Shown here piece by piece: positions 6,691-33,504 of a stretch of 64,000 nucleotides of DNA. Origin of the DNA: Eledone cirrhosa (Eukaryota); assembly GCA_964016885.1 (NCBI GenBank), contig OZ024742.1, positions 365,614,001 to 365,678,000 of the forward strand. Direction: 5' to 3'. A model generated the notes under the pieces. That model was not told where the DNA came from. It did no database searches and saw nothing but the letters and a program-made list of their open reading frames with translations. The first letter of the stretch is position 1, and every line of letters begins with the position of its first letter. The position numbers were made by a program, and so were the translations under genes.

Positions 6691-7088
6691 AGGTTATATT
6701 TAATTTTAAAAATGTTATAACTGATATAAAGCCCTCAACAGTTTAGTGGAGTAAATATACAATATATTAATAAATGGAAACTTTATTTATAAAACCATAT
6801 TTATTTTATTATACATATTTCAAGGGCCACCAAGGCAGATTATGGTGCGCTTTCATTTGCATACTCACTCATAACTTTGTATTACCCTCAATAAATGTAA
6901 TATCTCCACTATCCAGGAAGCTCCAACCGTTAAGGTTGTCTTTTTTTTTTATTTCCCGGTATGTCAATATTTATTTATAAAACAAATCTGTATTTTCTCT
7001 GATGAAAGCGCACCATAATTTGCCTTGGTTGCCCTTGAAATATGTATATATGGTTTTATATATATAGTTTCCATTTATTAATATATAT
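6691..7088. mobile_element. ORF-less foldback element with one-sided extension
   Basis: 6762-6856 is the reverse complement of 7001-7088 (AATGGAAAC...CAAGGGCCACCAAGGCAGATTATGGTGCGCTTTCAT). About 65 nt extra on the left; flanked by microsatellite. Confidence 0.7.
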
Positions 7089-7109
7089 ATATATATATAT
7101 ATATAGTAA

Positions 7110-7275
7110 TAATAATAAATGCGAAGACTAAAATCCAAAGGGGGAAAACAGCGATTCTTTGCCTGAACTTTAATCTGTTATTTTAATAAATATTTGTTCT
7201 AGGGTTCTTATATATTTGATATATATTTATCCTTATCGAGCCCTCTTTGGATTTTAGTCTTCACATTTATTATTA
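7110..7275. mobile_element. Short inverted-repeat (MITE-like) element in (TA)n
   Basis: ATAATAAATGCGAAGACTAAAATCCAAAGGGGG pairs with CCCTCTTTGGATTTTAGTCTTCACATTTATTAT. Confidence 0.65.
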
Positions 7276-7558
7276 TATATATATATATAATAATATATAT
7301 ATATACATGTATGCATTTATATACACACAAATACACACATTATATATATATATATATATATATATATATATATATATATATATATATATATATATATAAT
7401 GTATGTGTTTCGAGCTACTAAAACATGCATTTAGGGATGCTATTGTTCCAAACTATAGCATAAAGAACTAATAAAGACATAGAATATCTTTGATAAAAAA
7501 ATAACTGGAACAAGATCAGGTTTTCAATATAACATGTTTGAAAGAAAACATCTTCCTT

Positions 7559-7750
7559 ACACACACACACACACACACACACACACACATACACACACAC
7601 ACACACACACACACACACACACACACACACACACACACACACACATACATACACACACACACAGATACTCACACATACACATACTCATATACACACACAC
7701 AGACATACTCACACATACACATACTCACATACACACACGCGCACACACAG
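7559..7750. repeat. (CA)n and CA-rich compound microsatellite
   Basis: Direct inspection. Confidence 0.9.
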
Positions 7751-8196
7751 AGACTCACTTATGAATATGGCGTTAGAGAAAAATCTCCAATCAGCTAAGA
7801 CAATATAAGACAATTCCCCTTTATGGGGTTTTCAGATATGAAGAAGTAAACAAGGGAAATAATTCTTATAACCTGAATTGATCCACGTTTTGAGGAAGAT
7901 AGTTAGACATTCTTGTTTGTAGAACACTCTAGGTATGCTAATATATAGGATAAATAATATTGCTAACTACTCTATTCATACACACACACAGTATATATAT
8001 ATATATATATATATATATATATATATATATATATATATATATATATATTGTTATGCTTTGAGAAGGTCATGTTGCCAATAAGAAACACACGCACCAGTTT
8101 CTTTCACTTCAATTTATTATAAATTAAATTTATAAATTTAAGAATTTATAAATTTCCGGTTGGTTGGTTCCATAACCGGACGGTTGTTCATATATT

Positions 8197-29340: not shown

Positions 29341-29596
29341 ATATATATATATATATATATATATATATATATATATATATATATATATATATATATATAT
29401 ATATATCCGTATATATATAAATATATATATATGTATATATATATATTTAAAAGACTAGAGATGTAACGCACGAGTTATGATATATTGGTAAAACGAAAAG
29501 AAAATGCTGACAAATTTTTCCCAGTGAAAAATAGTTTAATTAGGAATAAGTAAAAATTAGTAATAGTATTGGTTAGTATTCAGTTTTGGTTTTAAG

Positions 29597-29634
29597 TGTT
29601 TAACGGTTGCGCATTTCTAATGCTTTTCAAGAAT
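29597..29634 (-). ncRNA. Decayed U3-A8 hammerhead of family E
   Basis: Minus strand: TTGAAAA GCATT aga AATGC GCAA CCGT TA. GAAA has become GCAA and stem I is lost. Confidence 0.5.
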
Positions 29635-30701
29635 AATTTTGAGATAGAGCGCCCGTGATGTTTGCTCTAATCTGATTAGTTTTGGAAATTCTACCTTTTT
29701 TATGTGAAAAAGGTGGCTCCAGATGTATTAAAATAAGTTTCGCGCCAATTCGTGTTGCAAAAATTCTTGTGATCAAAACAGTTTTGATTGGTCGGTAGAG
29801 GTCATGTGAATGTTAAAAATTGATTTTGCGCCAAACGTAGGTTTGTCGCGGCTGATTAAGATGTCACTGAAAAATAAGTCTTTTAAGACAAATATGTGTG
29901 TGTGTGTGTGTGTGTGTAGTAGTAGTAAAGAGGTTCATTGTGATAATGGTCAGCAGGGATGTGTGTGCGAATTGTAGTTTGTTGACAGGTCAACAGTTCA
30001 GATGCCTATTAAGACAAGTGTGTGTGTGTGTAGCAGAGTAATTCGTGGTAGAGGGATCGGTCTGTAGGAATGTGTCTGTACGTGTGTGGGGGATATTTTA
30101 ACATGTTAAAATATATTTTTCAACTCTTGTCTTATACGGAGAAGTGTGTGTGTGTGTGTGTGTGTATGTCTCTTTGTATGTTAGTGTACGCGTGTGTATG
30201 TGTGTGTGTATATGTCTGTGTGTGTGTGTGTGTGTATGTGTGTATGTGTGTGTGAACCAGTATTTTTGTGATACTGGTAAAAATGGTGTACATTATTCGA
30301 TATTTTCAGTAAAAACGATTCTCTCAAAAGAACATCAAACACATTAATAATAAAAGGTGTGAAGTAATATATAGTATTGGCATAACACCAAGAAGTGTGT
30401 GAGCGTCCAGATTGTACGTACTGCAAGGGGAATCCATTAGGCCTTGCCGTATTGGAATACTTGTGTACAAATATGTATATGCCCATCAGTGTGCAATGCA
30501 TGTGTGCGTATATGTATGTGTGTGTGTCGGCACGTTTATATCTATAGACATCAAAAGGTATGCAAATTTGTGTATATTTGTGTTGCACCATAGAACATGT
30601 GTGTTTACGTATGTCATTGTGTTTATATGTGGATAGAGATGTATGTAGGATGTATGCTGATGTAGGTATGTATGTTGACGTGTGTATGTTGTGGGTTCGT
30701 C

Positions 30702-32950
30702 TTAGGGAGAAGTGTTTAGACGGGGTCCGTATTTGTTAATAAAGTGAGATTCCTTGCTGATGCGCTGGGTGTAGGTGGCATTATCTTTAAATTTGTAGAG
30801 GGGAAAGATTCTGAAGTTGGGATGATTTGGGGCGGCACAGGTATCAATGTGTTCACTTAGTGGTATTTTCCTGTATTCCCGTATTTTAATTTGGGATCTA
30901 TGGACAGTCATTCGTTGGCGGAGGCTGTCTTTGGTCTGGCCTATGTATTGTTCTCAACAACCTGAGCAAGTTAATATATATATTAGATTTTCTGATGCGC
31001 ATGTGAAATAGTGTTTTACTATAAAACGTTGTCCTTCTTTGAAATAGAATTCCGAACCCTCTATTAGGTTGATGCATATGCCACAGTTGGGTCTATCGCA
31101 TTTTTTTACTGTGGGTTTCGTTGTTGTGGTTGGCAGTACTTTGGCATGTGTTAGCATGTTTTTCATTGACTTGGATTGTCTTTTGCTCTTTATGATATCA
31201 TGTGTTCGTAGGATTTGGTTCATTCTATGGTCCTTTTTTAACACAGGGATGTTCTGGAGGATGGTGTCAAAGGCCTCATTGTTGAGGGGGTTGTGTGTGG
31301 AGATGTATGGAAGAGCTTTTAGTTTCGGTTGATTTACTTTAGGGTGTCTAAGGACCTGGGTACTGAGTTTTAGGGCACGTTGGATTCCATTGTCAATTAG
31401 TGATGCAGGGTAGTCCCTGCCTATGAGTGTGTCCTTTAGTTCTTGTAGCCGTAAGTAACAGGTGTTTTTATTGGAGACTATAGTACAGATCTCTTGGCTA
31501 AGTTCTAGGGAATATTAATTTTAACGTGTCTAGGGCGGCAAGAGTTGAAAGGATGATATTTCTTGGAGTCTGTGGGCTTGTAGTATATGTCTGTTTCTAT
31601 TTTTTTGTTATGAATCTTAATGAGGATGTCGAGGAAGGGGAGTTGTTGATGGCTGTATCCCATTGTGAAGTTAATATTCGTGTTAAGCCCATTTATAAGG
31701 GTGTGAAATTCTTTAAGTTTCTCGATGTTTTCGTGCCAAAGGATGAAGCAGTCATCTAGATATCGCTTCCAGTTCCTTTCTATGTGTAAGTGGAGAGTGT
31801 TTCCAAATTTGTTTAGTACTTTAGTGTAGAGGGTGATTTCCAGGTATCCCATGACTAGGTTGGCATAAGTGGGGGCTGTTTTCGTTCCCATAGCGGTCCC
31901 AGATTTCTGCCTGTAGGGTTTGTTATTGAAAACGAAGTAATTGTTCTCCAAGATAAATTTGAGTCGCTCTATCACGAATTCTTTTTTGATGCGTTGTGGG
32001 AGTTCATTGTGGTAATTATCCAGCCAGAATTGGATAGCTTCTATTTCTAGGTTGTGGGGGATGTTGGAGTATAGGTTGACTACATCGAACGTCACTAGTA
32101 GGGTTTGTTCAGAAAGGGGCATATTAGGGAGGTGATTGAGCATATCTAGGTCGTCCCTTATATAGCTTTTGATGTGTTTGAGAAGGGTATCAATGAAGTT
32201 GCTAAGGCGGTGGGTTTGGCAAGCGGGGCCTATTATAGGTCTTAATTTGAGATCATTGGGTGAGGGGACATTGATGACTATGTGTGTGGCTTCCTTGCAT
32301 GCCTTACTTATTAATTCGCTTTTATGTACTTTAGGGATACCGTAGAAAAGTCTGGATTTACTTGTTTAGTCTGTGATGAAGCTGAATTCCTTGTTAGTGA
32401 GTCCTTCTTTGTATTGGTTGATTAGAGTTTTTAGGTTTCTCATAATTTTCTGTAGTGTTCAGCCTTTTCGTAGTATGTTTCGTTTTCCAAAGTGGAGAGC
32501 GCTAAGTTGATATAGAATTCTGTCTCCATTAGGACTACTGTACTCCCTTTATCAGCCTCTTTAATTGTAATGGTTCTGTCGGTTTTTAATCTATTTAATT
32601 CTTCCCATTCTTTCTTGTTGAGGTTTGGCTTGTGTTTTTGGCTGTACAAGTGTTGGTAAGGGAAGTTTGTGATGTGTTCACAGAATTCGTCCAGGATTTT
32701 ATTTCTACCTTTTGATGGGGTGTAATTGCTTCTATTTCTGGCTAATGATTCATCCTCATGGTACTGGTCGAATAGTTCTTCACTGAGTCGTAACTTTCTA
32801 CAGTAGTCTGTGATGTCTTCCTTCATTTCATAGTAGTTAGGACATAGTGGGATCGGTGTGAATTTAAGACCTTTGGAGAGTAAGTTGATAAGGTTGGGTG
32901 TTGGTTCTGCACTAGTTAGATTGATAATTTGTATTACTCTCGGTTTCTCC
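30702..32950 (-). pseudogene. Disrupted PLE RT-GIY-YIG ORF
   Basis: ORFs 32440-32826, 31505-32143, 30954-31244 and 30702-30911 are collinear and separated by stops or frameshifts. Confidence 0.9.
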
Positions 32951-33309
32951 TCCCTGTCTTGTGTTATTTTGTTTGCCTGTATCTGTGTGCTGTGTCTAAA
33001 AAATGGTTGGGGTAGAGGGGTTGTCTGCTGATGTTAAGTGGTCTCCTGTGTTTGTAATATTCCTTGTTGTTGTAAAATGTGGTTCGGGTTGGTGGTTGTA
33101 GATTGAATGGGGTGTTCCTGTATTGCGAGTATGGATGTGTGTTTCTATGTGCCATGTTGGATTGTGGTGTTATAGGTGGCCTACGTTGGTGGTTGTATCG
33201 TGTGGTGTTTGTTTTTGTTGTGTATTATGGAAGCGAGAGTTGAGAAAATGTAAATTACATTGCTGTCCCCTTATATATATATATATATAGAGAGAGAGAG
33301 AGAGATAGA

Positions 33310-33504
33310 TAATGAAGGAATTGTGGTAAGGAACCAGATGGATCATAACGCACCAGTGTACTCAATACTTAGGTAGTAGAGTGGGTAATAGGAAAAAGTA
33401 TGACCCCTACGGCAGAGCTCAAGCCGTTTCGACGGCTATTTCTGAGTCCAGAAATAGCCTTCGAAACGGCTTGAGCTCTGCCGTCGGGGTCATACTTTTT
33501 CCTA
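33310..33504. mobile_element. Family A mini-foldback (two inverted pLTR ends, no ORF)
   Basis: An inverted long-tailed end (33310-33444) is joined through CTG-AGTC-CAG to a forward short end (33449-33504). Confidence 0.88.

What the first reader, a model, noticed from the sequence alone, without database searches (positions are those of the whole stretch)
6691..33504. Recurrent asymmetric foldback: one short-ended arm and one long-tailed arm across at least six families
Seen: in each inverted insertion, one arm stops at an internal TA while the other continues further to a second TA. Family A (12657-14924 and 33310-33504): short ...TTCCTA vs ~80 nt longer ...CCTTCGTTA. Family C: 8048 vs 10390, ~55 nt. 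Family B: 20078 vs 24360, ~135 nt. Family F: 27845 vs 29063, ~60 nt. Hairpins at 29105 (~55 nt) and 6691 (~65 nt). Known: PLEs form inverted pLTRs with a short tail and favour microsatellites. Inference: each family has two fixed priming points on its RNA, one used on each side of a (TA)n target break through TA microhomology, giving a two-cDNA integration rule.
Basis: partly seen in the sequence, partly recalled or inferred. Interest (0 to 1): 0.75.

Follow-up and report, generated by a model that had tools for sequence, protein, structure and literature searches.

The report
Penelope insertions pair short, long ends
In six families of Penelope-type jumping genes in this animal genome, back-to-back insertions in TA repeats nearly always have one arm ending at a fixed short site and the other at a fixed long site, likely because each side of the cut chromosome primes its own DNA copy from a different fixed point on the element's RNA, which would explain a long-known but unexplained 'tail'.

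Summary
All seven foldbacks are real, with the stated short and long ends. Across the genome each family has two end classes, and 186 of 197 sampled foldbacks pair short with long (2 long/long, 1 short/short, 4 intermediate, 4 unresolved). For family A compact hairpins, genome-wide patterns give about 11,100 short+other against 135 short/short and 375 loose long/long. Either arm can be the longer one, and 11 long arms hold only tail, so one arm is not a fold-back copy of the other. All 12 testable ends share 2-7 bases with (TA)n. The elements are C-terminal-endonuclease Penelope-like elements: A, B, H have Hydra motifs, C, F Neptune-like motifs, and G is a non-coding 260-base unit with a tRNA-like gene. 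The one-sided tail is published (PMC8557442, PMC3846280), as are two RT start sites bounding it (PMC11167929). The strict pairing, TA microhomology and 50-138-base tails were not found in eight literature searches. Twin priming is inferred, not shown. The scan noted this rule before elsewhere in the same genome.

The parts
6691..7081 (.). Family H foldback (Hydra-type PLE end): long arm on -, short arm on +
   Evidence: family pairing 18 of 18 short+long; ORF-bearing copies with RWR and DKT motifs
6191..6320 (+). Family A solo long arm
6495..6621 (+). Family A solo long arm
8048..9590 (-). Family C short-ended arm (GIY-YIG coding part plus pLTR)
9606..10390 (+). Family C long-ended arm, internally deleted; its 60-base tail encodes the ORF N-terminus in read-through copies
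12657..12752 (-). Family A long arm, only 96 bases (80 of them tail)
12753..14924 (+). Family A short-ended arm, 2.17 kb, from RT thumb through EN to a hammerhead-like pLTR; far longer than its partner
16050..19994 (-). Family D element (relative of C): short end at 16050, ORF lacking about 75 N-terminal residues, no inverted long arm
20078..20209 (-). Family B short-ended arm, 132 bases
20212..24360 (+). Family B long-ended arm: partial tandem pLTR, truncated Hydra-type ORF, pLTR, 138-base tail
27742..27792 (+). Family A solo short arm
27846..28171 (-). Family F short-ended arm
28168..29063 (+). Family F long-ended arm with 65-base tail
29105..29340 (.). Family G foldback: two truncated copies of a non-coding 260-base tandem unit that carries a tRNA-Ser-like gene; long arm on -, short arm on +
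33310..33504 (.). Family A compact hairpin: long arm on -, short arm on +

Best explanation
Each foldback is one insertion of a Penelope-like element whose two head-to-head arms end at two fixed sites, one short and one long, and it likely forms by twin target-primed reverse transcription, with each side of a cut in (TA)n priming a separate cDNA from a different site on the RNA. Shown: two end classes per family, pairing of one of each, arms of independent length, 2-7 bases shared with (TA)n at each end, and in Hydra-type families a small stem motif 5-10 bases downstream of each end. Inferred steps: (1) the GIY-YIG domain nicks both strands; (2) the two 3' ends anneal through the short TA match at the short and the long site; (3) one RNP holding both sites, most simply two RT active sites on one RNA, assigns one site to each strand, since a (TA)n target is symmetric and cannot do so; (4) each cDNA stops on its own, often at a common point (about -57 in A, -148 in B and F) that may be the transcript's 5' end or a stall; (5) the two cDNA 3' ends are joined by host end-joining and the gaps are filled. 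I put the two-cDNA model at about 0.7 and the one-RNA, two-active-site version at about 0.45.
For: Pairing: 186 of 197 foldbacks in six families. Family A genome-wide: 11,377 strand matches for short+any, 135 loci short/short, 375 loci loose long/long; independent choice would give about a quarter each. Of 7 short/short loci inspected 4 were true; of 15 long/long loci 2 were full long/long. Short/short would be no longer a palindrome than short/long, so loss of palindromes does not explain its rarity (inference). Arm lengths in 139 short+long pairs: short arm longer by more than 30 bases in 40, long arm (minus tail) longer in 22, within 30 in 77; 11 long arms lie wholly within the tail. Junctions differ between loci. 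The rule holds when an arm has extra tandem units (G). Arms of 95 A hairpins differ by 1.27 diagnostic bases against 4.54 when shuffled. In C, 10 of 33 pairs start within 20 bases of each other against 2.2 expected (p 5e-5). TA match: short ends A 3, B 4, C 4, D 4, F 4, G 2-3, H 2; long ends B 2, C 4, F 7, G 2, H 2; background for 2 or more is 0.11-0.15 per site. Stem motif RCTC...GAGY after 5 of 5 testable Hydra-type ends, background 143 of 10,894 positions. In vitro, a Poseidon PLE cuts and extends both strands and starts RT at two sites bounding the tail (PMC11167929).
Against: No biochemistry here; genomic ends cannot tell RT starts from nuclease cuts. PMC11167929 found no difference in start site between strands and no homology of start site to target. 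Coincident 5' ends away from hot spots were significant in C only (A 4 of 21, p 0.19; B 1 of 13, p 0.71; F 4 of 20, p 0.11). Subfamily concordance also follows from subfamilies being active at different times or from gene conversion. Later slippage could move an end to the nearest TA and inflate microhomology, and A/B/H and C/D are related, so the 12 ends are not independent. The stem motif is absent at the C, F and G ends, and in B's short site it has a long loop and is not in the lowest-energy fold. A's long-end read-through was not found. Junction microhomology is modest and the exact mapping noisy.
Confidence: 0.7

Rival explanations
1. Endonuclease resolution: a symmetric inverted DNA intermediate forms first and the element's nuclease cuts it at two TA-like sites, one per arm (the suggestion in PMC8557442 that the tail results from EN-mediated resolution).
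For: TA-like bases at both ends fit a nuclease that prefers TA; strict pairing follows if one asymmetric complex makes both cuts; the downstream stem motif could be read as DNA.
Against: In vitro RT start sites coincide with tail ends (PMC11167929). Tail-only long arms and arm lengths unequal in both directions need two separately truncated copies anyway. Internal tandem units in B, C, F, G and H keep both sites uncut.
Confidence: 0.14
2. Snap-back or self-priming: one cDNA (or an antisense RNA, as proposed in PMC3846280) folds back at a palindrome and is copied to give the second arm.
For: 77 of 139 pairs have arms within 30 bases of each other; arms share subfamily variants; some junctions are palindromic.
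Against: A copied arm cannot be longer than its template, yet the short arm is longer in 40 and the long arm in 22 of 139 pairs; 11 long arms do not overlap their partner; the window's A copy has a 2.17-kb short arm on a 96-base long arm. It may still account for a minority of near-perfect hairpins.
Confidence: 0.08
3. Two separate RNPs, each with its own RNA, one committed to the short and one to the long site; still two cDNAs, but not from one RNA. (A variant inside the best explanation; confidence is its share.)
For: Avoids two polymerases on one overlapping template; a few hairpins in the lists show arms of different subfamilies.
Against: Arm concordance, coincident 5' ends in C, and the excess of stunted long arms in A (13 versus 1), as expected if a trailing RT meets a leading one.
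Confidence: 0.25
4. A single ancestral asymmetric hairpin per family was amplified whole, like a MITE, so pairing is inherited.
For: Thousands of A hairpins of similar size; F and B hairpins share a centre.
Against: Centres differ from locus to locus, arms range from about 25 bases to 5 kb, and several subfamilies each show the rule.
Confidence: 0.03

Closest known systems
Inverted-pLTR insertions of EN+ Penelope-like elements with the optional 30-40-bp tail (PMC8557442, Fig. 2 legend and section 6 passages; PMC3846280 passages)
   Same: [quoted passage not shown]
   Different: Tails here are 50-138 bases; one-sidedness is counted as a near-strict pairing rule; the papers ascribe it to EN resolution or self-priming, not to two cDNAs.
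PAc (Poseidon, Anolis) in vitro TPRT with two internal RT start sites (PMC11167929; main text parts 1-3 of 4 read)
   Same: Two fixed start sites bounding the tail; both target strands cut and extended; predicted dimer.
   Different: That paper reports no strand difference in start-site use and no homology to the target, and does not describe pairing of sites within one insertion; here every testable end shares 2-7 bases with (TA)n.
Hydra clade PLEs (PMC8557442, section 11 passages)
   Same: A, B, H carry the CxCX5C linker; B and H carry RW(K/R) and DKT; (TA)n insertion.
   Different: Hammerhead-like cores in A and B read UUGAAAA (the U3-A8 variant described in PMC4209133) and gave no Rfam hammerhead hit; no tree was built.
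LINE-1 twin priming (recalled, no call)
   Same: Second target strand primes a second cDNA on the RNA, giving an inversion joined by end-joining.
   Different: In L1 it is an occasional accident at variable internal sites with non-overlapping cDNAs; here it would be the rule, at two fixed sites, with overlapping copies.
Non-LTR retrozymes as non-autonomous PLE derivatives (bioRxiv 10.64898/2026.07.22.740005, passages)
   Same: G is a short tandem non-coding unit with the PLE insertion footprint.
   Different: G carries a tRNA-like gene and no hammerhead core was found in it; 'tRNA' does not occur in that preprint's main text.

Membership tests
EN+ Penelope-like elements | Single ORF with PLE-type RT and C-terminal GIY-YIG endonuclease | tested here: met
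   Long ORFs with RT and C-terminal YIG/YVG motifs in B, C, D, F, H and in pieces in A. Pfam hit only 2 of 9 window proteins: GIY-YIG in C and RVT_1 in the element at 31505-32365. G has no ORF.
EN+ Penelope-like elements | pLTR from partial tandem, inverted 5'-truncated copy, tail | tested here: met
   Read-through tandem copies for B, C, F, G, H; not found for A.
EN+ Penelope-like elements | Hammerhead motif in the pLTR | tested here: inconclusive
   A folds as a three-way junction (z -2.0); core-like strings in B, D, F, H by pattern and in the window's C copy by eye; Rfam gave no hammerhead hit; none in G.
EN+ Penelope-like elements | RT phylogeny within the PLE clade | not tested
   No reference PLE set was available; 108 database relatives of B were nearly all unnamed.
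Hydra clade (A, B, H) | RWK and DKT motifs | tested here: met
   B has RWK and DKT; H has RWR and DKT; this region was not recovered for A.
Hydra clade (A, B, H) | CxCX5C linker and no cysteine pair inside GIY-YIG | tested here: met
   Linker in A, B, H; one cysteine between the two motifs in B and H, read by eye.
Neptune/Nematis-like (C, D, F) | CX2-5CxxC linker and cysteine pair inside GIY-YIG | tested here: met
   Present in C, D, F. F has DKG; C and D have DKS.
Neptune/Nematis-like (C, D, F) | Clade placement by tree | not tested
   No tree built; the label is by motif only.
Naiad/Chlamys | N-terminal GIY-YIG domain | tested here: not met
   Endonuclease lies C-terminal to RT in the aligned B, C, D, F, H proteins.
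Non-LTR retrozyme (G) | Type I hammerhead in each tandem unit | tested here: not met
   No core by pattern (that slice covered little of the unit) and no Rfam hammerhead hit over two full units; tRNA at 51 bits instead.
Twin priming (works like) | Both target strands prime cDNA on RNA at the two sites | not testable with these tools
   Inferred from arm geometry.

The most novel reading that the evidence does not exclude
Programmed twin priming is the normal integration route of endonuclease-bearing Penelope elements: one RNP holds one RNA at two marked sites (duplicated stem motifs in the Hydra clade), anneals each cut target strand there by 2-7 bases of TA, telomerase-style, and makes both arms at once, so that no element-primed second strand is needed; the same machinery also spreads a tRNA-bearing non-coding unit.
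Probability: 0.4. Interest if true: 0.78.

Novelty: new variant of a known kind. Interest (0 to 1): 0.52.

Why it matters
How PLEs make their tandem and inverted structures is named as open in PMC8557442 (section 15), and the one in vitro study left the later steps unvalidated (PMC11167929). A near-strict one-short-one-long rule on a symmetric target says the asymmetry lies in the RNP and that both chromosome ends are primed. That gives a sharp test in an existing assay, bears on how a telomerase-sister RT chooses its template start, and defines true element ends for annotating well over 100,000 core matches in this genome. The architecture itself is known, so the gain is a mechanism rule, not a new element class.

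Tried and rejected
Rfam scan of 5000-34300: only microsatellite-driven matches, no hammerhead. Two pattern searches for read-through of A's long end gave 19 and 6 hits, all unrelated flanks. Test for an untemplated G at A's common 5' end (cap copying): C 19, G 17, A 5, inconclusive; the script stopped early after printing these rows. Test whether (TA)n is made at insertion: flanking SINE pieces looked like later insertions, no empty site recovered. TA-run length by side: A 7 versus 10 units (p 0.017, one of four tests), no difference in B, C, F; not used. Junction mapping is invalid for C and B rows with overlaps above about 30, because the references held inverted pieces; the exact redo called 87 of 125 junctions 'insertions', mostly from divergence, and 15 of the other 38 had 2 or more shared bases against 15% by chance; weak. 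Folding of the B, C, F tail regions: no excess structure. An intron ending just after B's long end: acceptor-like string, no donor found. Homodimer prediction for B residues 1-490: no verdict. PMC522041 and PMC19282 were not held, so the original Penelope papers, and Arkhipova 2006, were not seen and may hold a two-end model. Supplement PDFs 1 and 2 of PMC11167929 gave only figure lettering; its Fig. S2 on genomic ends could bear on pairing and was not visible.
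Full report
Setting. The window is G000:C3:365614001-365678000 of a 3.0-Gb genome. Bases 6-34 kb are a cluster of retroelement pieces nested in (TA)n; the rest is mostly a 28/53-base satellite.

Observation. I call the unnamed hairpins G (29105) and H (6691). Tails are 80 (A), 60 (C), 138 (B), 65 (F), about 50-55 (G) and 65-90 (H) (by eye).

Sampling. For each family I searched the genome with an exact core motif upstream of the short end, blind to the tail. Each search lists its first 100 places and returns 30 loci; I fetched 120 more regions from those lists, mostly minus/plus neighbours, plus some solos and same-strand pairs. 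The sample is thus from the first listed places, largely contig C1 for A, C, F, H, and is not random. For A tallies I dropped loci from tail-aware searches (L001-L030, L061-L101, L272-L277). Copies of a family found by chance in other loci up to L277 were included for A, B, C, F.

Two end classes. A: 73 short, 62 long, 2 between, of 137. C: 48, 44, 1, and 1 read-through, of 94. F: 43, 51, 3, 1, of 98. B: 36 short in two registers, 26 long, 3 read-through, 3 other, of 68. G: 39 short, 41 long, 14 read-through. H: 36 short, 23 long (for G and H 'short' means tail motif absent, checked by eye).

Pairing. Short+long in A 53 of 56, C 33 of 35, B 18 of 20, F 36 of 36, G 28 of 32, H 18 of 18; in all 186 of 197, with 2 long/long, 1 short/short, 4 with an intermediate end and 4 G pairs unresolved. 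For B I counted the +11 register as short, and counted the window copy, which the script paired with its internal junction, as short+long from the sequence. Genome-wide for compact A hairpins: 5,718 + 5,659 strand matches for short+any, 135 loci short/short, 375 loci for a loose long/long pattern. About 11,100 are therefore short+other, an upper bound for short+long since the right end was loosely defined. Inspection showed 4 of 7 short/short true and 2 of 15 long/long fully long on both sides; 9 of the 15 were long plus a shifted short end, 3 long plus intermediate, 1 short plus intermediate. Equal forward and reverse counts show no chromosome polarity.

What the elements are. B and H have RW(K/R), DKT and a CxCX5C linker, the Hydra features listed in PMC8557442; A has the linker and aligns with them (43% to B). 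C, D and F have the CX2-5CxxC linker and a cysteine pair in the nuclease motif. No tree was built. Read-through copies show that the tail is the stretch where pLTR passes into the ORF start or its leader. G is a 260-base non-coding tandem unit with a tRNA-Ser-like gene that obeys the same rule, even when an arm has extra units.

Mechanism. In 139 short+long pairs the short arm reaches more than 30 bases further upstream in 40, the long arm in 22, and 11 long arms lie within the tail. A fold-back copy cannot exceed its template or fail to overlap it, so two separately made copies are needed. Many arms stop at a shared point (A about -57, B and F about -148), which may be the RNA 5' end; PMC2377424 places the Penelope start site in the pLTR, but my cap-G test was inconclusive. 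Arms come from the same subfamily (1.27 versus 4.54 differences, 95 hairpins, all A loci), and in C, but not A, B or F, 5' ends coincide more than chance away from hot spots. These fit one RNA without proving it. All 12 testable ends share 2-7 bases with (TA)n; background for 2 or more is 0.11-0.15, but families are related and slippage may add to this. Following a lead from earlier scan notes, I found the stem motif RCTC...GAGY 5-10 bases after 5 of 5 testable A, B, H ends (background 1.3%), in 127 of 143 A and 36 of 41 H long arms, and not at C, F or G ends. Since (TA)n is symmetric, the choice of one site per side must come from the RNP (inference).

Literature, and what I saw. PMC11167929: main text parts 1-3 of 4, supplement PDFs without text. 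PMC8557442: passages and section 15. PMC3846280: passages and the Discussion. PMC2377424, PMC4209133, PMC13282606 and bioRxiv 10.64898/2026.07.22.740005: passages. L1 twin priming is recalled. Eight searches showed no paper stating a short+long pairing rule or a two-cDNA model for PLEs; only listings were seen for most hits, subscription papers are missing and two primary papers were not held. The one-sided tail and the two RT start sites are published. Against my reading, the in vitro paper saw no strand bias and no target homology; a bulk assay would not show within-molecule pairing, and it used another clade and target.

Verdict. Observation confirmed and general; architecture known; the strict pairing, arm-length argument and TA match add a testable rule. 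New variant of a known kind, interest 0.52. My reading was formed before I consulted earlier scan notes, which report the same rule on other DNA of this genome and are not independent support.

Noticed in passing
window 29105-29340; L356:3100-4130: Family G is a 260-base tandem unit with a tRNA-Ser(GGA)-like gene (Rfam tRNA 51 bits) that shows the PLE short+long footprint; autonomous partner not identified.
   Followed up: partly
window 16050-19994: Family D copy has a long Asn-rich insert, lacks about 75 N-terminal residues and has no inverted long arm; its 5' end abuts the (TA)n that holds B.
   Followed up: partly
L102:5140-5262; window 28890-28915 and 24078-24162: Hammerhead-like cores of A, F and B read UUGAAAA, the U3-A8 variant; A has a long stem II in which most hairpins turn.
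   Followed up: partly
L229:5960-6030 (-): B's long end lies just before a string like a branch point and 3' splice site; no donor was found upstream.
   Followed up: partly
L351:1650-1670 and 1741-1758: In H the stem motif after the short end and the one after the long end are near-identical copies, suggesting the tail arose by duplication of the start signal.
   Followed up: partly
window 30954-33270 (-): Another broken PLE, about 65% identical to family F, with DKG and an RVT_1 hit; its ends were not analysed.
   Followed up: no
window 7039-7341, 33520-34130 and many loci: Further short foldback families sit in the same TA runs, often tail to tail with those studied.
   Followed up: no
L105:1080-5900: A roughly 4.8-kb inverted duplication holding D long ends on both sides and A ends; may be a rearrangement or assembly artefact.
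   Followed up: no
window 6316-6494: A 45-base unit of TA runs spaced by the last bases of A's long end, about four copies, suggests slippage or repeated priming at that end.
   Followed up: no
window 34299-64000, 2717-3934, 26048-27147: A 28/53-base satellite of 30 kb, an 81-base tandem of 15 copies and a 1.1-kb (TGT)n-like array.
   Followed up: no
window 10400-11323: 5'-truncated LINE fragment (RT C-terminal part) ending at an (AG)n run; family label not tested.
   Followed up: no
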